Source of the DNA: an uncultured Lacinutrix sp.
GTDB taxonomy: Bacteria > Bacteroidota > Bacteroidia > Flavobacteriales > Flavobacteriaceae
Assembly (NCBI GenBank): GCA_937129145.1
Contig: CAKZMU010000009.1
Location: 80,551 to 144,550 of the forward strand
DNA length: 64,000 nucleotides
Reading direction: 5' to 3'
In this document: piece by piece, positions 28,952-61,773 of the stretch
Layout: each line of letters begins with the position of its first letter
How positions within the stretch are numbered: the first letter of the stretch is position 1
Made by a program: the position numbers and the translations under genes
Notes under the pieces: model-generated
Told to the model about the DNA's origin: nothing
Database searches by the model: none
Seen by the model: the letters and a program-made list of their open reading frames with translations, nothing else

Positions 28952-29497
28952 TTGAATAAAACAAACATGGAAAATAATTTACACAACAACTATGTCTTTA
29001 AAGCTATGGACGCATATCCATACGAGCTTGAAGAAACATTGGAAGCATTAAACTATGCTTTATCATATAACAATAAAGATGCGCAAGCATTATGCTTAAT
29101 GGGACGTGTTTATGCTGAACAATTAAAAGATTACGAAACAGCTAAACAATATTTTGCTGAAGCTATTGCGCAACACATGGAAATGCCAAAAACATATCCA
29201 TTTTATATCCAAACTTTATTATGGAATGGTGATTATGAAGAAGCAGATAAATTAATAACATTTGGACTAACTGTAAAGGGTACTGACAAAGCTTTATTAC
29301 AATTATTACAAGGTATTCTTTTTGAAAAACAGGGGGATTTTAAGGCTGCTATCAAGGCATATAAAAAAGCTAATAAAACAGCAACAAACAACTGCTTTAT
29401 TGAATATGTGAATAATGAAATATCTAGGGTTAAAAAGAAAATGGACCCCAGAAAGAAGAAGAAAAAGAAGTCTAACAAAAAAAGAAAGGGGAAATAA
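28952..29497 (+). CDS. TPR-like protein with poly-lysine C-terminal tail
   Basis: 181 aa with TPR-like helical repeats and the C-terminus PRKKKKKKSNKKRKGK. It is followed by the hairpin ATCGGCAA-TCTTGTC-TTGCCGAT. Confidence 0.55.
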   Translation: MNKTNMENNLHNNYVFKAMDAYPYELEETLEALNYALSYNNKDAQALCLMGRVYAEQLKDYETAKQYFAEAIAQHMEMPKTYPFYIQTLLWNGDYEEADKLITFGLTVKGTDKALLQLLQGILFEKQGDFKAAIKAYKKANKTATNNCFIEYVNNEISRVKKKMDPRKKKKKKSNKKRKGK

Positions 29498-29529
29498 AAA
29501 AATCGGCAATCTTGTCTTGCCGATTTAAT

Positions 29530-29613
29530 GGGAACTCGTCAACGTTGGAGAGTTGGTGCAGATTGTAAACCTGTTGCTTAAATGCTAAGAAAGTTCGAAT
29601 CTTTCAGTTCCCA
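29530..29613 (+). tRNA. tRNA-Tyr-like (anticodon GTA), class II, slightly non-canonical
   Basis: Acceptor GGGAACT/AGTTCCC, anticodon loop TTGTAAA, variable arm CTTA-AATGC-TAAG, and T arm GAAAG-TTCGAAT-CTTTC. Anomalies are C at position 8 and an A.C pair closing the anticodon stem. Confidence 0.7.
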
Positions 29614-29627
29614 CAAATAAATAGATT

Positions 29628-29700
29628 GACAAGGTGGCTGAACGGTTAAGGCAACAGACTGCAAATCTGTTTTTTGTGAGTTCAAATCTCACCCTTGTCT
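29628..29700 (+). tRNA. tRNA-Cys (anticodon GCA)
   Basis: Acceptor GACAAGG/CCTTGTC, anticodon arm ACAGA-CTGCAAA-TCTGT, T arm GTGAG-TTCAAAT-CTCAC, and discriminator U as expected for Cys. Confidence 0.85.
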
Positions 29701-29706
29701 CAAAAT

Positions 29707-29779
29707 AGTATCGTAGCTCAATGGCTAGAGCGCTCGGTTGTCTCCCGAGAAGTTGCGGGTTCGAATCTCGTCGGTACTG
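29707..29779 (+). tRNA. tRNA-Asp (anticodon GTC)
   Basis: Acceptor AGTATCG/CGGTACT, D arm GCTC/GAGC, anticodon arm CTCGG-TTGTCTC-CCGAG, T arm GCGGG-TTCGAAT-CTCGT, and discriminator G. Confidence 0.85.
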
Positions 29780-29780
29780 C

Positions 29781-29844
29781 GAAGCAGTTTAAGAGATGAG
29801 AAGTTTACCCTGAGCGTAGTCGAAGGGAATCTTGTCGGTACTGC
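29781..29844 (+). repeat. conserved 46-nt tRNA-trailer element (copy A) plus an 18-nt duplicate of the tRNA-Asp 3' end
   Basis: 29781-29826 is GAAGCAGTTTAAGAGATGAGAAGTTTACCCTGAGCGTAGTCGAAGG. 29827-29844 (GAATCTTGTCGGTACTGC) repeats 29763-29780 with 1 mismatch. The core matches copy B at 30181-30226. Confidence 0.8.
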
Positions 29845-29848
29845 AAAT

Positions 29849-29931
29849 CTGGGAGGATAATCCCGAAGGTTCGGGAGTGGTTTACTCGCTTTGGAAGCGA
29901 GAGGTTGTAGGTTCAAATCCTACCTCTCAGA
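29849..29931 (+). tRNA. tRNA-Pro-like (anticodon TGG) with a hairpin insertion in the D-loop
   Basis: Acceptor CTGGGAG/CTCTCAG (C1:G72 and A73, as in bacterial tRNA-Pro), anticodon arm CTCGC-TTTGGAA-GCGAG, and T arm GTAGG-TTCAAAT-CCTAC. The D region is about 10 nt too long because of the hairpin TCCCGAAGGTTCGGGA (29861-29876). Confidence 0.6.
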
Positions 29932-29937
29932 CAAAAT

Positions 29938-30009
29938 ACTCCGTTAGTCAAATGGCTAAGACGCCTGACTTTCTATCAGGAATTAAGGGTTCAATTCCCT
30001 TACGGAGTA
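29938..30009 (+). tRNA. tRNA-Glu (anticodon TTC)
   Basis: Acceptor ACTCCGT/ACGGAGT, anticodon arm CCTGA-CTTTCTA-TCAGG, and T arm AAGGG-TTCAATT-CCCTT. Confidence 0.8.
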
Positions 30010-30014
30010 CACAT

Positions 30015-30100
30015 TGAGATATAGCTTAATTGGTAGAGCGTCGCTCTCATAAGGCGAATGGTTTAGGTTCTCCCGATAGTTATCGGGACTAATATCTCAA
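30015..30100 (+). tRNA. tRNA-Met/Ile2-like (anticodon CAT) with a hairpin insertion in the T-loop
   Basis: Acceptor TGAGATA/TATCTCA, D arm GCTT/GAGC, and anticodon arm TCGCT-CTCATAA-GGCGA. The T-stem is TTAG(G)/(A)CTAA, but the T-loop is TTC followed by the 18-nt hairpin TCCCGATAGTTATCGGGA (30071-30088). Confidence 0.55.
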
Positions 30101-30106
30101 CAACAC

Positions 30107-30179
30107 GCAGGAATGGCGAAACGGCAAACGCACTCGACTTAGAATCGAGAAACTGGGAGTTCGAATCTCTCTTCCTGTA
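30107..30179 (+). tRNA. tRNA-Leu-like (anticodon TAG) with a short (5-nt) variable loop
   Basis: Acceptor GCAGGAA/TTCCTGT, a class-II-like D arm (TGGCGAAACGGCAAACGC), anticodon arm CTCGA-CTTAGAA-TCGAG, variable region of only AAACT, and T arm GGGAG-TTCGAAT-CTCTC. Confidence 0.65.
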
Positions 30180-30180
30180 C

Positions 30181-30246
30181 GAAGTAAGGAAAGAGATGAG
30201 AAGTTTATGCTGAGCGAAGTCGAAGTGAATCTCTCTTCCTGTACGA
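30181..30246 (+). repeat. conserved 46-nt tRNA-trailer element (copy B) plus a 20-nt duplicate of the tRNA-Leu(TAG) 3' end
   Basis: 30181-30226 is GAAGTAAGGAAAGAGATGAGAAGTTTATGCTGAGCGAAGTCGAAGT. 30227-30246 (GAATCTCTCTTCCTGTACGA) exactly repeats 30163-30182. Confidence 0.8.
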
Positions 30247-30247
30247 T

Positions 30248-30321
30248 GCTCCACTAGCCCAAATGGAAGAGGCAACAGTTTTAAGCGCTGTTAAGTCCAA
30301 GTTCGAATCTTGGGTGGAGTA
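30248..30321 (+). tRNA. tRNA-Leu-like (anticodon TAA) with a short variable loop
   Basis: Acceptor GCTCCAC/GTGGAGT (G1:U72), anticodon arm ACAGT-TTTAAGC-GCTGT (alternatively AACAG/CTGTT with a 9-nt loop), variable TAAGT, and T arm CCAAG-TTCGAAT-CTTGG. Confidence 0.6.
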
Positions 30322-30327
30322 CAAAAT

Positions 30328-30451
30328 AAGCTTATGGTGTAATGGAAAGCACACAAGGTTTAGCTCATGCATATCTATTTCAAGAAATAGGTATTCGTGA
30401 ATGCAAAGCATTTCGAACCTTGGAGTATGGGTTCAAGTCCTATTAAGCTTA
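30328..30451 (+). tRNA. tRNA-like gene (probably Arg, anticodon TCG) with a 52-nt insertion in the anticodon loop
   Basis: Acceptor AAGCTTA/TAAGCTT, D arm GTGT/GCAC, anticodon stem CAAGG (30354-58) / CCTTG (30418-22) enclosing 59 nt, and T arm ATGGG-TTCAAGT-CCTAT. The last 7 loop nt, TTTCGAA, form a canonical loop. The insert at 30359-30410 contains the hairpin CTATTTC-AAG-GAAATAG. Confidence 0.55.
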
Positions 30452-30456
30452 CAAAA

Positions 30457-30527
30457 TAACCTGTGGTGTAACGGTAACACTCAAGATTTTGATTCTTGTA
30501 TTATAGGTTCGAATCCTATCAGGTTAT
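30457..30527 (+). tRNA. tRNA-Gln (anticodon TTG)
   Basis: Acceptor TAACCTG/CAGGTTA, D arm GTGT/ACAC, anticodon arm CAAGA-TTTTGAT-TCTTG, and T arm ATAGG-TTCGAAT-CCTAT. Confidence 0.8.
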
Positions 30528-30535
30528 CAAAAAAT

Positions 30536-30608
30536 GGAACAGTAGCAAAGTTGGTCAATGCGTCGGACTGAAAATCTGAAAATACAGGTTCAATTCCTGT
30601 CTGTTCCA
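30536..30608 (+). tRNA. tRNA-Phe (anticodon GAA)
   Basis: Acceptor GGAACAG/CTGTTCC, anticodon arm TCGGA-CTGAAAA-TCTGA, and T arm ACAGG-TTCAATT-CCTGT. Confidence 0.82.
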
Positions 30609-30768
30609 CTAAAATTAAAGATTCCTGCCTATGCAGGAAATAATATCAAGCTGGTCTTGTTGAGTGTTTCGGTATAGCACTATTGTATAAATCGTTGCAG
30701 AAATGCATCATGAGTTTATGTTCAACTAGACTTGAAGGTTTTGACTGTTAACCAAAAAATGGTCTCCC

Positions 30769-30803
30769 CCTATAGGTCGTGGGTTCGACTCCCACTTATC
30801 CCA
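30769..30803 (+). pseudogene. orphan tRNA 3' half (anticodon-stem 3' strand, variable loop, T arm, acceptor 3' strand)
   Basis: CCTAT-AGGTC-GTGGG-TTCGACT-CCCAC-TTATCCC-A. No matching 5' half lies upstream. The complementary 5' half lies 3 nt downstream. Confidence 0.6.
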
Positions 30804-30806
30804 ATT

Positions 30807-30873
30807 GGGATAGTAGTTCAGTGGTTAGAACAATAGGATGTAGGTGTTGCTGGTTCGATTCCAGTCGTTTGCT
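30807..30873 (+). pseudogene. tRNA 5' half (acceptor 5' strand, D arm, anticodon-stem 5' strand) fused to an unrelated T arm and acceptor 3' strand
   Basis: GGGATAG-TA-GTTC-AGTGGTTA-GAAC-A-ATAGG is followed by ATGTAGGTGTT, then GCTGG-TTCGATT-CCAGT-CGTTTGC. The acceptor strands within this unit do not pair. GGGATAG and ATAGG pair perfectly with the upstream fragment at 30769-30803. Confidence 0.55.
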
Positions 30874-30888
30874 TGGAGAAATTCCTTG

Positions 30889-30950
30889 GCAATAGTAGCT
30901 CAATTGGTAGAGCACTGCACTTTTAATGCAGGTTTGGACTCAAAATCCAC
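30889..30950 (+). pseudogene. tRNA-Lys-like (anticodon TTT) fragment lacking a matching acceptor 3' strand
   Basis: GCAATAG-TA-GCTC-AATTGGTA-GAGC-A-CTGCA-CTTTTAA-TGCAG is followed by a degenerate T arm (TGGA-CTCAAAA-TCCA). No CTATTGC-like 3' strand lies downstream. Confidence 0.5.
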
Positions 30951-31450
30951 AATCAAAAGCCCATCATCTTTTAAAACTGATGACCAACGCAGATTGTCAT
31001 TCTGCTCAACAAAAATGACAAAAATAGTAGATTGCAAGTCGGCTTTAGATTCCTGCATTACTGACGCATCGGTCAACACTGGTCGTGGGAATGACAAAAC
31101 TAGAGCAGTCTTGAAAGTGCCTTGAAATACTGATTTTTAATAGTAGAAGTGGTTACTGTTTTGTAATAAGAAATTATATAAATCTGATTATCGATTCATA
31201 TAGTTGTCACAATACTCAGCACTAATTACAGGCACTATTAATATGAGTATTTCCGCACCAGAAAAATGATTTGCTTTCTGCTATTTTTAACAATGAAGAG
31301 ATATAAAAATATACTTCAATTAATGATGAACTCGTCATTGTTTTTTGAAGTTGGTAAGCCTTCCGTTACAAGAATTGCCGCCACGCTCAAAAATGGGCAA
31401 CAATAAATGTTTAATCTTCCTGAAATAAATTCAGGATAAAAAAATTAGAA

Positions 31451-59826: not shown

Positions 59827-61596
59827 TTAAAATGTTTTTAAAAAAGCGTCTAAATCTTCTTCAGGTGACAGATTAAGTTTTTTTCTGAGCCTGTTTCGGC
59901 TCTTTTTTACGGAAGAAGGGTTGATATTTTGAAGTGCTGCTATCTGTTTTGTATCTAAATCTAGTTTGATTAATGAACATAATCTTATTTCCGTTTTGGT
60001 TAAACCTTCAAATTGAGTGGTTAACTTATCATAGAACGAACTGCTTAACGCATCTATTTTGGTATAAAAGTCATCTGCACTTTTATCAACCCAAATTTTG
60101 TTTTTTATTTCGGTATCTAATTCCTCTAACTCTTTGGCGCGTTTTCTGCCTGTTGAGGTTTTTAGATTCTCCATACGTTCTGCTAAAGACAAAGCCCATT
60201 CTTGGTTATTAGATATATTAACAGCAAAATTGGTAAGGTCTTTTTTCTTATATTCTATTTCTGAGTTTAATAATTTATTCTGTAAGTCTTTATATTTCAC
60301 ACGTTGTTTATATCGATAGTATAGTAAACTCATTAAGAAAATAGCAGCTAGACTTCCAAAAATTATCCATTGGCTTTTTGCTCTGTTTTTTGTGTTAAGT
60401 AATGAAATCTCTGATTCTTGAGTTTTAAGTTTTTCCTCTGCAATACGCGCTTCTTTAGCTTTAACAATACTGTCTAATCGCATGGTTTTAGCAAATTCCA
60501 TTTGCTGCAACTGCTTACCAACTTCATCTTTTTTTAAGCTATCATTTAAAGTGGCCATTTCTTCATGATATTCTAAAGCTTTAACTTTATTACCTAAAGC
60601 TTTGTATCCACGATATAGACAATCACAAGCGTTTTTCTTTTGTATTAGACTATTTAATTCGAATGCAATTTTGTAACTTCTTGTACAAGTTTCAATACTT
60701 TTTGAATATGCTTTTTGCTCGAGATAAAGTTCACCTAAGTCGATAACAGTTTCGGATATTAATGGTAGACTCCCTATTTTTTCACGAAGCGCTAAGCTTC
60801 TATTGTAATAATTTAATGCCTCCTTAAGACTTCCTTTTTTTTGATAAACATCACCAATATAACCTAGTGATATTGCTTTATTTCTTGCCAATTTAAGTTC
60901 GCTTGTTCGCTTTAAACTTCTATTAAAATAGTCAAGAGCCAAATTATAATCTGCTTGTTTTAAGTAGGACTTCCCTATATTATTGAGAGTTAATGAATTA
61001 TTCTTATCAATTTCCAAACAACGTTGAAAATAGGTTATTGCTTTCTCACTATTACCTTGATCATAATATAAATCACCAATGGTATTTAAAGTAAAAAATG
61101 TTCTGTTGTTATCTCCTAGTTCTTCACGGATTTTCAGGCTTTTTTGTAAGTAATTTAAAGCTTTTATACCATTGCCTATATCACTATAAACGATTCCAAA
61201 TTTATTGTAAGTTGCTGCTATACCTTCTTTATCTCCTAGTTCTTTTTCAATAACAAGTTCTTTTTCAAAATGTCTAAGCGATTCTATATAATTTCCCTTA
61301 ACCCAATTTGCTGTCCCTAAAGCTTTGTGTGCATGAGCAATGTGCTTTTTAGACTTGATATTTGTCGCATAATCGTATTCTATTTTTCCATAGTATATTG
61401 TACTGTCTGGTTCGGTAAATACTATATTCCAAGAGTACTCTCCTAAGGCATTTAACCTTAAACTATCTTGCTTAGTTATATCGTTCCAAACGGATAAAAG
61501 AGAATCCATCTCTATGTCAAAATCAGTTTTATTTTCTTGACCAAAAGAAGAATAGCTAATCAAAAGAAGAAAAAAAAGTATGGCTCGTTTAAACAT
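59827..61596 (-). CDS. TPR-repeat, single-TM, LuxR-type HTH transcriptional regulator
   Basis: Signal peptide, multiple TPR repeats, a TM helix (WIIFGSLAAIFLMSLLYY) and a C-terminal HTH (TEIRLCSLIKLDLDTKQIAALQNINPSSVKKSRNRLRKKL). Confidence 0.8.
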   Translation of the reverse strand: MFKRAILFFLLLISYSSFGQENKTDFDIEMDSLLSVWNDITKQDSLRLNALGEYSWNIVFTEPDSTIYYGKIEYDYATNIKSKKHIAHAHKALGTANWVKGNYIESLRHFEKELVIEKELGDKEGIAATYNKFGIVYSDIGNGIKALNYLQKSLKIREELGDNNRTFFTLNTIGDLYYDQGNSEKAITYFQRCLEIDKNNSLTLNNIGKSYLKQADYNLALDYFNRSLKRTSELKLARNKAISLGYIGDVYQKKGSLKEALNYYNRSLALREKIGSLPLISETVIDLGELYLEQKAYSKSIETCTRSYKIAFELNSLIQKKNACDCLYRGYKALGNKVKALEYHEEMATLNDSLKKDEVGKQLQQMEFAKTMRLDSIVKAKEARIAEEKLKTQESEISLLNTKNRAKSQWIIFGSLAAIFLMSLLYYRYKQRVKYKDLQNKLLNSEIEYKKKDLTNFAVNISNNQEWALSLAERMENLKTSTGRKRAKELEELDTEIKNKIWVDKSADDFYTKIDALSSSFYDKLTTQFEGLTKTEIRLCSLIKLDLDTKQIAALQNINPSSVKKSRNRLRKKLNLSPEEDLDAFLKTF

Positions 61597-61698
61597 TATG
61601 AATTTTAGTTGGTTGTGATTGAAAAATACTTGCTCTAAGGTAAAGAAAAATATAACGAAGAAAAAAGCCTCTCATTTCTGAAAGGCTTGTGTTTAAAA

Positions 61699-61712
61699 GT
61701 GGTCCCACTTGG
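61699..61712. repeat. 14-bp repeat (tRNA-proximal copy) overlapping the tRNA(CAT) 3' end
   Basis: GTGGTCCCACTTGG is identical to 51936-51949. Confidence 0.6.
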
Positions 61713-61773
61713 GCTCGAACCAAGGACCCTCTGATTATGAGTCAGATGCTCTAACCAACTGAGCTATGGGACC
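61700..61773 (-). tRNA. tRNA with anticodon CAT (elongator Met or Ile2/lysidine type)
   Basis: The reverse complement reads GGTCCCA-TA-GCTC-AGTTGGTTA-GAGC-A-TCTGA-CTCATAA-TCAGA-GGGTC-CTTGG-TTCGAGC-CCAAG-TGGGACC-A. The cloverleaf is GC-rich and canonical, and is followed on the minus strand by a terminator hairpin. Confidence 0.88.

What the first reader, a model, noticed from the sequence alone, without database searches (positions are those of the whole stretch)
30163..30246. Second copy of the 46-nt element with an exact 20-nt duplication of the tRNA-Leu(TAG) 3' end (copy B)
GAATCTCTCTTCCTGTACGA occurs at 30163-30182 (tRNA 3' end) and again at 30227-30246. The two copies are separated by GAAGTAAGGAAAGAGATGAGAAGTTTATGCTGAGCGAAGTCGAAGT. 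Compared with copy A the central core is conserved. The 5' arm has changed (GTAAGGAA-AGAGAT), so it now complements this tRNA's own end (ATCTCT-C-TTCC-TG-TAC). That is apparent covariation across two different tRNA contexts. It argues for a selected RNA structure or a target-primed insertion mechanism rather than chance.
Basis: seen in the sequence. Interest (0 to 1): 0.8.

Follow-up and report, generated by a model that had tools for sequence, protein, structure and literature searches.

The report
tRNA-linked T-loop hairpin insertion element
The duplicated tRNA end is real and marks one copy of a small, highly conserved, folded element that sits just after transfer-RNA genes in hundreds of bacterial genomes and restarts the tRNA sequence from a fixed point in its T-loop; I found no described family that fits it.

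Summary
The 20-nt repeat is exact (30163-30182 = 30227-30246), and the window holds exactly two copies of the element, after tRNA-Asp and after tRNA-Leu(TAG).

This is not a local artefact. The same 31-nt core, GAGAAGUUUA-[3 bp]-UGAGCGNAGUCGAA-[3 bp]-A, occurs in at least 119 genome loci and at least 120 metagenome loci. Most loci are Flavobacteriaceae; some are labelled Patescibacteria, Cyanobacteria or other groups.

The anatomy is the same everywhere:
- A tRNA gene lies upstream on the same strand.
- A 5' arm pairs with the sequence that follows the core.
- After the core, the tRNA sequence restarts exactly at T-loop A58 and runs to about position 74-76.

Both helices covary and contain many G·U pairs, so a single strand of tRNA polarity is the structured form. 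Related genomes show empty sites, decayed copies, tandem arrays, solo copies and an insertion at a non-tRNA TTCG^A site. The element follows 202 of 412 tRNAs with a TTCGA T-loop, but only 1 of 62 with other T-loops.

It has no Rfam family and no match in phage, plasmid or viral collections. Six full-text literature searches found no description.

Best reading: a new gene-less duplicative insertion element aimed at T-loop-like TTCGA sites by base pairing. The catalyst and any host function are unknown.

The parts
30107..30179 (+). tRNA-Leu(TAG), 73-74 nt with a short variable arm and no encoded CCA. This intact upstream gene has its 3' end duplicated. Its T-loop is TTCGAAT (30160-30166).
   Evidence: ARAGORN; Rfam tRNA at 66.6 bits
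30164..30182 (+). X1: first copy of the duplicated segment, from A58 through the T-stem 3' strand, acceptor 3' strand and discriminator A, plus CGA.
   Evidence: Sequence; X1 and X2 are identical over these 19 nt (20 positions compared, the only mismatch is just past the repeat)
30184..30197 (+). 5' arm X' (GTAAGGAAAGAGAT). It is complementary to X: AGAGAT pairs with 30229-30234, AGGAA with 30235-30239 region and GTA with 30242-30244. It can also pair with X1.
   Evidence: Sequence; minimum-free-energy folds; P1 covariation in the family
30198..30207 (+). Invariant single-stranded joiner GAGAAGTTTA between helices P1 and P2.
   Evidence: The two positions the search pattern left free are conserved in 124-128 of 128 relatives, and the joiner is also kept in model-detected copies
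30208..30227 (+). P2 hairpin. The stem is TGC (30208-30210) with GTG (30225-30227), forming C-G, G·U and U·G pairs. The loop is TGAGCGAAGTCGAA (30211-30224). Its TCGAA (30220-30224) is the reverse complement of the T-loop TTCGA.
   Evidence: P2 is 97% paired, with CG, GU, AU, GC and UA pair types; the loop apex tolerates insertions and U21-A34 changes to C-G in variants
30228..30246 (+). X2: junction A plus the second copy of the tRNA 3' end. It forms the 3' strand of P1. tRNA-Leu(TAA) starts 2 nt later, at 30248.
   Evidence: Sequence; ARAGORN
29707..29779 (+). tRNA-Asp(GTC), the host of copy A. Its T-loop is TTCGAAT.
29784..29847 (+). Copy A: arm GCAGTTTAAGAGAT (29784-29797), core (29798-29828) and X2 AATCTTGTCGGTACTGCAAA (29828-29847). 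X2 matches X1 (29764-29783) at 18 of 20 positions. The C-to-T change keeps P1 paired as G·U.

Best explanation
Copy B is one of two copies in this window of a widespread, previously unclassified, gene-less insertion element.

The element has two parts:
- a variable 5' part: a 14-nt arm here, and in many Flavobacteriaceae about 60 nt that includes a terminator hairpin plus a short arm;
- a nearly invariant 31-nt core: a 10-nt joiner, a 3-bp stem, a 14-nt loop and one A.

It lies just downstream of an intact tRNA gene. It is followed by a restart of the tRNA sequence at T-loop A58.

Inferred mechanism. The element is placed at T-loop-like TTCG^A sites. The site is read by base pairing: the core's invariant UCGAA is complementary to TTCGA, and the 5' arm is complementary to the 4-14 nt that follow A58. 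Insertion duplicates the downstream segment instead of splitting the gene. The upstream copy therefore keeps the tRNA whole, and the downstream copy becomes one strand of the element's own stem. The active form is a folded single strand of tRNA polarity, either RNA or single-stranded DNA. Arrays grow by repeated events at the tRNA or by unequal exchange between the repeats. Older copies decay.

Shown here: the anatomy, the conservation, the covariation, the strand polarity, the link to TTCGA, the presence/absence polymorphism, the decay and the polarity of arrays.

Inferred, not shown: recognition by base pairing, the duplicative joining step, and whether the catalyst is a protein acting in trans or the element itself.
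For: 1. Family size and anatomy.
- At least 119 genome loci hold 151 elements.
- At least 120 metagenome loci hold 140 elements.
- 121 of 151 and 96 of 111 lie within 600 nt downstream of a same-strand tRNA. These cover 19 and 24 anticodon types.

2. The duplication boundary is fixed.
- The upstream copy is immediately preceded by TTCG in 73 of 88 metagenome cases. Most of the rest (11) are preceded by the stem of the previous array unit.
- The boundaries can be read directly.

3. T-loop sequence dependence.
- 202 of 412 tRNAs with TTCGA carry an element, against 1 of 62 with TTCAA or other T-loops. Fisher p = 3e-15, but the tRNAs are not phylogenetically independent.
- In the window, both elements follow TTCGA tRNAs.

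4. Non-tRNA targets.
- In L115 the element follows TTCG^A at the 3' end of a SpoIIE-domain ORF, with a 30-nt duplication and a matching 5-nt arm.
- L098 shows a diverged example.

5. Structure.
- Both helices covary and hold frequent G·U pairs, for example 45 U·G and 17 G·U in P2. On the opposite strand these would be A·C mismatches.

6. Turnover.
- tRNA-Trp to secE: empty in L029 and L087, decayed in L009 and L067, filled in 12 others.
- tRNA-Asp is empty in the syntenic Dokdonia array L116 and filled in the window and in L095.
- The window's own tRNA-Met site is empty but is filled in L007, L061, L088 and L027.

7. Arrays.
- Among 40 arrays, the tRNA-proximal unit has the better core in 14 and the distal unit in 1. 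The proximal unit has the better tRNA-end copy in 19, the distal in 1.

8. Solo copies that kept X occur away from any tRNA: L013 at 2568 and L076 at 2176.

9. The loop motif also occurs as inverted pairs inside other hairpins in the same genomes.
Against: - No transposase, integrase or reverse transcriptase is consistently nearby. The recurrent neighbours are housekeeping genes in conserved order: xerC-like, hpf, tRNAs, tuf, tRNA-Trp, secE, nusG.
- The element is absent from 2.9 million viral contigs, 50,697 phage records and 72,556 plasmid records. No vehicle for spread between phyla is visible.
- The duplication length varies from about 16 to about 90 nt. No known transposase does this.
- I cannot derive how an arm complementary to a new tRNA end is made.
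- At orthologous sites in different genera, the spacer has diverged while the core, X2 and the P1 pairing are kept. This looks like selection in the host, not simple selfish decay.
- The search pattern fixed 21 of the 31 core positions, so core invariance is partly due to how loci were found. The free positions and the model-detected variants are nevertheless conserved.
Confidence: 0.45

Rival explanations
1. A host-useful, cis-acting RNA. The arm, core and X2 are transcribed with the tRNA and fold into a mimic of the tRNA's T-arm plus acceptor 3' strand, with an enlarged 'T-loop'. tRNA enzymes such as RNase P, RNase Z or the CCA-adding enzyme, or tRNA-end-targeting toxins, would act on it or be titrated by it. 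It could serve as a 3'-processing signal, a punctuation mark between tRNA and downstream RNA, or a decoy. Selection keeps the duplicate identical to the tRNA. This is compatible with an origin by insertion.
For: - RNA-like covariation with G·U pairs.
- At orthologous tRNA-Thr, tRNA-His, tRNA-Trp and tRNA-Gln sites in many genera, X2 follows lineage-specific changes of the tRNA end. 36 of 99 pairs are identical and the median is 1 mismatch. The arm changes in step, while the spacers diverge.
- Elements sit inside highly expressed tRNA operons, for example between tRNA-Thr and tRNA-Tyr and between tRNA-Trp and secE.
- The single-base junction (A) between P2 and P1 is kept in 121 of 128 copies.
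Against: - Many close relatives lack the element or carry decayed copies at the same site, so it is dispensable.
- P1 length ranges from 4 to 14 bp, so most copies are not full minihelices.
- Long Flavobacteriaceae units place a terminator between the tRNA and the element, and no consistent promoter is seen.
- Non-tRNA and solo copies exist.
- There are no expression data.
Confidence: 0.3
2. A small self-cleaving or self-ligating RNA. P1 docks the tRNA-end copy, and the core cuts or joins at the P2/P1 junction next to A58. This would release or attach an 18-20-nt tRNA 3' fragment, either as a spare part for tRNAs cut in the T-loop or as the RNA step of the element's own spread.
For: - The architecture resembles a ribozyme with its substrate: an invariant core, two helices, a one-base junction exactly at the duplication boundary, and a loop apex that tolerates insertions.
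- tRNA-adjacent small ribozymes have a precedent in theta ribozymes (PMC10879173, listed).
Against: - No match to any ribozyme family in Rfam, even at E up to 10 or in other loci.
- The sequence cannot be threaded onto hammerhead, HDV-like, hairpin, twister or pistol cores (my own inspection).
- No complementarity between joiner and loop that would give a pseudoknot.
- No biochemical data.
Confidence: 0.1
3. Scars of ordinary integrase-mediated integration at tRNA genes. The two tRNA-end copies would be attL and attR of an island whose interior was almost entirely deleted.
For: - Direct repeats of a tRNA 3' end starting in the T-loop are the classic signature of tyrosine-integrase elements (established knowledge).
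- An integrase-family gene lies about 1 kb upstream in 22 loci.
Against: - In 21 of those 22 loci the integrase gene is part of a conserved xerC-like/hpf/tRNA/tuf gene order, not of an island.
- The repeats are only 46-110 nt apart.
- The same 31-nt core lies between them at 24 different tRNA types and in several phyla, which independent deletions would not produce.
- G·U covariation indicates a single-stranded structure.
- No matches in phages or plasmids.
Confidence: 0.04
4. A chance or strain-specific local tandem duplication with no wider meaning.
For: None beyond the fact that tRNA arrays are prone to rearrangement.
Against: - Zero matches expected in shuffles.
- Hundreds of homologous copies elsewhere.
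- Covariation in both helices.
Confidence: 0.01

Closest known systems
Integrative elements that target tRNA genes through tyrosine integrases (T-loop sublocation class)
   Same: Insertion is tied to the T-loop. The tRNA gene stays intact. A direct repeat of the tRNA 3' end, from the T-loop to the terminus, flanks the inserted DNA. Successive events can give arrays of partial tRNA ends.
   Different: This element is 46-110 nt and encodes nothing. It has no element-linked integrase and no phage or plasmid copies. It carries a conserved 31-nt folded core with RNA-like covariation. It serves at least 24 tRNA types, each with its own matched repeat.
REP/REPIN and MITE-type small intergenic repeats, and IS elements that insert into hairpin loops (IS1397 and ISKpn1 in REP loops)
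   Same: It is short, non-coding, multi-copy and hairpin-forming. It is scattered near gene ends and shows presence/absence polymorphism and decay. The loop motif also occurs as inverted doublets and inside terminator hairpins.
   Different: REPs and MITEs are lineage-specific, whereas this core is the same across phyla. MITEs have terminal inverted repeats and short target duplications of fixed length. Here the 'inverted repeat' is made from the target itself, and the duplication is 16-90 nt starting at a fixed base.
IS200/IS605-family single-strand transposition, including its miniature PATE derivatives
   Same: Both involve a strand-specific, folded single strand, a hairpin next to the joining point, and a short target (TTAC or TTGAT there, TTCGA here) that could be read by base pairing with bases in the element.
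   Different: IS200/IS605 insertion makes no target duplication and would split a tRNA at the T-loop. No TnpA or TnpB gene was seen near any copy.
Theta (minimal HDV-like) ribozymes next to phage tRNAs (PMC10879173)
   Same: Both are small conserved structured RNAs placed directly after tRNA genes, plausibly acting on the tRNA 3' end.
   Different: There is no HDV-like fold and no Rfam hit. This element is absent from viral contigs. Theta ribozymes do not duplicate the tRNA end.
tRNA-like 3'-end processing modules (the mascRNA type, downstream of MALAT1) and tRNA acceptor/T-arm minihelices
   Same: A T-arm-like stem followed by an acceptor 3' strand lies downstream of another RNA.
   Different: The acceptor 5' strand is usually missing. 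The T-loop is replaced by a 31-nt module. No processing data exist.

Membership tests
Known self-cleaving ribozyme classes (hammerhead, HDV-like/theta, twister, twister-sister, pistol, hatchet, hairpin) | Match to the family covariance model (core sequence plus secondary structure) | tested here: not met
   cmscan of 29400-31200 at E up to 10 gives only tRNA and noise hits. Seven other loci searched at E up to 0.01 give the same result.
Known self-cleaving ribozyme classes | Site-specific self-cleavage | not testable with these tools
   Needs in vitro transcription or end-mapping.
Tyrosine-integrase tRNA-targeting islands | Direct repeats of the tRNA 3' part flanking the insert | tested here: met
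   X1 and X2 are identical over 19 nt here. 100 of 151 and 88 of 111 elements elsewhere have an upstream copy.
Tyrosine-integrase tRNA-targeting islands | An integrase gene and kilobases of cargo between the repeats | tested here: not met
   The repeats are 44-110 nt apart. The neighbouring genes are housekeeping.
MITE / classical insertion sequence | Element-borne terminal inverted repeats and a short target-site duplication of fixed length | tested here: not met
   The only inverted repeat is arm against target copy, and it changes with each tRNA. The duplication length is about 16-90 nt.
REP/REPIN | Extragenic palindromic units, often as inverted doublets, specific to a lineage and linked to a RAYT transposase | tested here: inconclusive
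   Inverted doublets of the loop motif exist. However, the core is shared across phyla, and whole genomes could not be searched for a RAYT gene.
IS200/IS605-type single-strand elements | No target duplication; subterminal hairpins at both ends; a TnpA gene in autonomous copies | tested here: not met
   A duplication is nearly always present. No TnpA was found among the ORFs within 3.5 kb.
CRISPR array or solitary repeat unit | Constant repeats alternating with different spacers; cas genes or a leader nearby | tested here: not met
   Some arrays have about 32 nt of core plus about 32 nt between cores (L001, L097, L018). The 'spacers' within an array are the same tRNA-derived sequence. No cas genes were found among the neighbours.
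tRNA intron (group I, or protein-spliced bulge-helix-bulge type) | Interrupts the tRNA, so that removal is needed to make it functional | tested here: not met
   The upstream tRNA is complete without the element (66.6 and 58.3 bits). In copy A the first copy gives the better T-stem.

The most novel reading that the evidence does not exclude
This is a new class of guide-directed mobile nucleic acid. A roughly 45-nt folded RNA or single-stranded DNA would recognise T-loop-like TTCGA sites by base pairing, through its UCGAA loop and a reprogrammable 5' arm. It would then join itself to the downstream strand at A58, either by its own catalysis or with a still unknown host enzyme. That would make it the smallest known site-specific, duplicative insertion system, acting in several bacterial phyla.
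Probability: 0.2. Interest if true: 0.95.

Novelty: categorically new. Interest (0 to 1): 0.82.

Why it matters
If the reading is right, tRNA genes in marine Flavobacteriaceae, in genomes labelled as candidate-phyla-radiation bacteria, and in other groups are shadowed by a tiny conserved folded element. It copies their 3' ends from a fixed T-loop base without harming the gene.

This would matter in three ways:
- It would be a new way for DNA or RNA to target the most conserved short sequence in biology, the T-loop.
- It would be a compact candidate for a programmable recognition or joining module, or for a new ribozyme or protein-binding RNA.
- It would be a practical annotation issue. These units create partial-tRNA repeats and mislead tRNA finders: with its intron option, ARAGORN built a false 'intron-containing tRNA-Pro' out of copy A.

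Even if it turns out to be only a repeat family, it is a large conserved RNA-like motif that is missing from Rfam.

Tried and rejected
- Phage origin of the array. Flanking genes are chromosomal housekeeping genes: RecJ, MFS, OsmC and Band 7. There is no close phage relative. The core has no viral, phage or plasmid hit.
- Known RNA families. Rfam gave nothing at permissive thresholds.
- Hammerhead, HDV-like, hairpin, twister and pistol cores. I tried to thread the sequence onto each by hand. The junction lengths and catalytic bases do not fit.
- A joiner-loop pseudoknot. I found no complementarity.
- Protein coding. The GAG AAG TTT frame is open, but the variable loop base falls on a second codon position and the stems covary, so I rejected it.
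- Retron-like ncRNA. There is no template region between the hairpin and the 3' stem strand.
- Origin from mature tRNA by reverse transcription. I looked for CCA in X2 where the gene lacks it and found no consistent pattern (L036 is a lone case).
- An associated enzyme. Clustering of 773 neighbouring ORFs gave only conserved housekeeping gene order. ORFs beside solo, non-tRNA and inverted-pair copies gave no transposase.
- Long-range inverted copies of the loop motif flanking an ORF. None were found.
- Literature. Six full-text searches, including one for the sequence strings themselves, found no description.
- Mechanisms to create the arm for a new target. I tried fold-back synthesis, hairpin-capped breaks, template switching and tRNA-primed cDNA. 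None reproduces the order X, reverse-complement arm, core, X without a pre-existing donor. This remains unexplained.

Full report
**1. What is in the window**

The region 29540-30960 (+) is a chromosomal tRNA array. Its flanks encode RecJ, an MFS transporter, OsmC, a TPR protein, a Band 7 protein, an M28 peptidase and UDG. GC content is about 34%.

tRNA-Leu(TAG) occupies 30107-30179. Its T-loop is TTCGAAT at 30160-30166.

The sequence between the copies breaks down as follows:
- a 14-nt arm, GTAAGGAAAGAGAT (30184-30197);
- the joiner GAGAAGTTTA (30198-30207);
- a 3-bp stem, TGC with GTG (30208-30210 and 30225-30227);
- a 14-nt loop, TGAGCGAAGTCGAA (30211-30224).

After one A (30228) the tRNA sequence resumes. 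tRNA-Leu(TAA) begins at 30248.

Copy A, after tRNA-Asp, has the same layout. Its arm is 29784-29797, its core is 29798-29828, and its second tRNA-end copy (X2) is 29828-29847. X2 matches the first copy (X1) at 18 of 20 positions.

The core pattern occurs exactly twice in the window, with none expected by chance. A covariance model built later also finds only these two sites.

**2. It is a family, not a local accident**

I scanned one genome per species (GTDB) with the pattern GAGAAGTT-N3-8-TGAGCGNAGTCGAA. The same pattern in metagenome contigs returned 120 loci, also at the limit, holding 140 elements.

About 95 of the 119 genome loci are Flavobacteriaceae or other Bacteroidota. The rest are labelled Patescibacteria/CPR (Woese-, Roizman-, Levy-, Shapiro- and Blackburnbacteria, and CPR2), Cyanobacteria, Chlorobiota, Omnitrophota, 'Gammaproteobacteria' assemblies and one Nanoarchaeia bin. 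Labels on metagenome bins may be unreliable.

There is no match in 2.9 million viral contigs, in phage records or in plasmid records.

**3. Constant anatomy**

- 121 of 151 genome elements lie within 600 nt downstream of a same-strand tRNA, covering 19 anticodon types.
- 96 of 111 evaluable metagenome elements do the same, covering 24 types.
- 100 of 151 and 88 of 111 have an exact upstream copy of the sequence that follows the core.
- That upstream copy is immediately preceded by TTCG in 73 of 88 cases. In 11 of the others it is preceded by the stem of the previous array unit.

The repeat therefore always starts at T-loop A58. It ends at about position 74-76 of the tRNA, and includes CCA where CCA is encoded. 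In many Flavobacteriaceae the repeated unit runs on through the trailer and a rho-independent terminator, giving units of about 95-115 nt. Short units of about 63-75 nt, like the two in the window, also form arrays (L001, L097, L018, L016, L052).

**4. Structure**

I aligned 128 distinct 45-nt elements (A1) and counted pairs.

| Measure | Result |
|---|---|
| P1 (7 bp: arm with the first bases after A58) | paired in 78% of cells |
| P2 (3 bp) | paired in 97% of cells |
| Pairs with changes on both sides | 10 of 10 |
| Shuffles reaching the observed values | 0 of 500 |
| Paired cells when partners are slid by one or more columns | falls from 84% to 30-55% |

G·U pairs are common: 45 U·G and 17 G·U in P2. 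On the other strand these would be A·C mismatches. The structured molecule is therefore a single strand with the polarity of the tRNA.

P1 starts directly at N59, so it uses two T-loop bases that are unpaired in a tRNA. Only one base, the A, separates P2 from P1 in 121 of 128 copies.

Model-detected variants add further points:
- The loop apex accepts insertions of 11-30 nt (L020, L039, L085).
- The U21-A34 pair becomes C-G in L087 and L039.
- Tandem G·A/A·G pairs are invariant.
- GAGAAGUUUA is kept even where the P2 hairpin is replaced (L048).

No Rfam family matches, either here or in seven other loci.

**5. Evidence for insertion, loss and targeting**

The window's array is syntenic with L095 (array plus the Band 7 gene) and with L116, a Dokdonia bin.
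- tRNA-Asp is filled in the window and in L095 but empty in L116.
- tRNA-Leu(TAG) is filled in L116, but with a 51-nt spacer instead of 17 nt.
- The window's tRNA-Met (61699-61773, minus strand) is followed by its terminator and no element. The orthologous sites in L007, L061, L088 and L027 are filled.
- Between tRNA-Trp and secE, L029 and L087 are empty, L009 and L067 hold decayed remnants, and 12 other loci are filled.

Elements follow 202 of 412 tRNAs whose T-loop reads TTCGA, but only 1 of 62 with TTCAA or another T-loop. Fisher p is 3e-15, but the tRNAs are not phylogenetically independent. In the window, the two hosts have TTCGA, while the Cys, Pro-like, Glu and Phe tRNAs have TTCAA and carry no element.

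In L115 the element lies at the 3' end of a SpoIIE-domain ORF. The 30-nt duplication again begins right after TTCG, and a 5-nt arm matches the next bases.

Solo units that kept the tRNA-end copy sit away from any tRNA in L013 and L076.

In 40 arrays, the unit nearest the tRNA is better preserved than the farthest. For the core the count is 14 to 1; for the tRNA-end copy it is 19 to 1.

**6. Evidence that pulls the other way**

At orthologous sites in different genera, the spacers have diverged. Yet the core is kept, X2 follows lineage-specific changes in the tRNA end, and the arm follows X2. Among 99 X1/X2 pairs, 36 are identical and the median is 1 mismatch. This looks like selection or concerted evolution in the host.

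No enzyme gene travels with the element. The recurrent neighbours are a conserved gene order: xerC-like, hpf, tRNA-Thr/Tyr/Gly/Thr, tuf, tRNA-Trp, secE, nusG, rplK.

Long arms are near-perfect reverse complements of the tRNA end. Arm B is the full complement minus two bases, and L097, L003, L034 and L048 show the same. This suggests templated synthesis rather than slow selection. I could not find a mechanism that produces the order X, arm, core, X at a new tRNA without a matching donor.

**7. Interpretation**

The core's UCGAA is the exact complement of TTCGA. The arm is the complement of what follows A58. The boundary of the duplication coincides with the junction of the two helices. Together these fit a guide-and-target arrangement: the element is joined to the downstream strand at A58, and the upstream strand is re-completed, so the tRNA survives.

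I rank this duplicative, base-pair-guided insertion as the best explanation, at 0.45. Whether the intermediate is RNA or single-stranded DNA is open. A host-useful tRNA-end mimic (0.30) is compatible with that origin and explains the long-term conservation. A small ribozyme (0.10) is attractive on architecture alone. Integrase scars (0.04) and chance (0.01) are effectively excluded.

**8. Comparison with known systems**

The element resembles tRNA-targeting islands in its T-loop start, intact tRNA and direct repeats. It resembles REP/MITE repeats in being small, multi-copy and hairpin-forming, with turnover. It resembles IS200/IS605 elements in using a strand-specific folded single strand with a short target.

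It fails a defining feature of each:
- It has no integrase and no cargo.
- It has no element-borne inverted repeats and no fixed-length duplication.
- It does have a duplication, and it has no TnpA.

It is not a CRISPR array, a tRNA intron or any Rfam family. Six literature searches found no description. That is not proof that none exists.

**9. Limits**

- The loci were found with a pattern that fixes 21 core positions.
- Bin taxonomy is uncertain.
- The counts include orthologous sites.
- Nothing here measures transcription or catalysis.

Noticed in passing
window 29848-29931 (hairpin 29861-29876): A tRNA-Pro(TGG)-like gene starts right after copy A. It carries a 16-nt palindromic insert, TCCCGAAGGTTCGGGA, in its D-loop region. 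The syntenic gene in L116 (2901-2974) lacks the insert. Default ARAGORN misses the gene. With the intron option it builds a false 123-nt 'tRNA-Pro with intron' that starts inside copy A's core.
   Followed up: partly
window 30012-30100 (hairpin 30071-30088): A tRNA-like gene with a CAT anticodon has an 18-nt hairpin, TCCCGATAGTTATCGGGA, inside its T-loop. A near-identical hairpin (TCCCGATGGCTATCGGGA) precedes a duplicated tRNA-Thr 3' end in L110. This looks like a second kind of small insert tied to the T-loop.
   Followed up: partly
window 30328-30452: A tRNA-Arg(TCG)-like gene has an insert of about 52 nt at the anticodon loop. ARAGORN predicts it only with the intron option. Whether this is a real intron or a pseudogene is unknown.
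   Followed up: no
window 30734-30835: Weak sub-threshold hits to Y RNA-like YrlA (32.9 bits against a gathering score of 69) and to tmRNA lie in the distal part of the array. This suggests further tRNA-like modules of unclear nature.
   Followed up: no
window 61540-61773 (-): tRNA-Met and its terminator are an empty site for the element. The orthologous sites in L007, L061, L088 and L027 carry it.
   Followed up: yes
L116 1960-2055 and 2620-2700; L116 2356-2520 and 2901-3040: In the syntenic Dokdonia array, two tRNAs carry a 22-nt hairpin, CCTGCCTGCCGGCATAGGCAGG, between the T-stem and the T-loop. tRNA-Cys and tRNA-Pro there have 3'-end duplications with different, shorter loops (AAGCGTAAC and AAAGACAAGGTCAAC) in place of the 31-nt core.
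   Followed up: partly
L069 1855-1904; L022 7485-7546; L051 1937-2017: The loop motif TGAGCGNAGTCGAA also occurs as inverted pairs that form long hairpins, like REPIN doublets. In L051 the pair sits inside the loop of a terminator hairpin and is preceded by GAGAAGTTT.
   Followed up: partly
L002, L076, L077, L081, L082, L091, L044, L047 (about 60 nt upstream of the core): In the loci labelled Patescibacteria or 'Gammaproteobacteria', the tRNA end is followed first by a hairpin of about 40 nt. Its 5' strand (C/GTTCGAC-NN-GCTCA) is the complement of the core loop. Then come the arm and the core. The role of this extra hairpin is unexplained.
   Followed up: partly
L053 3388-3510 and 5340-5486 (-): A repeated unit of about 120 nt contains two or three tandem modules of the type GTTTA-stem-TGAG...CGAA-stem. 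It has no arm, no tRNA end and no tRNA nearby.
   Followed up: no
L115 2449-2560 (-): The element is inserted at TTCG^A in the last 40 nt of a SpoIIE-domain ORF, with a 30-nt duplication. This is the clearest non-tRNA target.
   Followed up: yes
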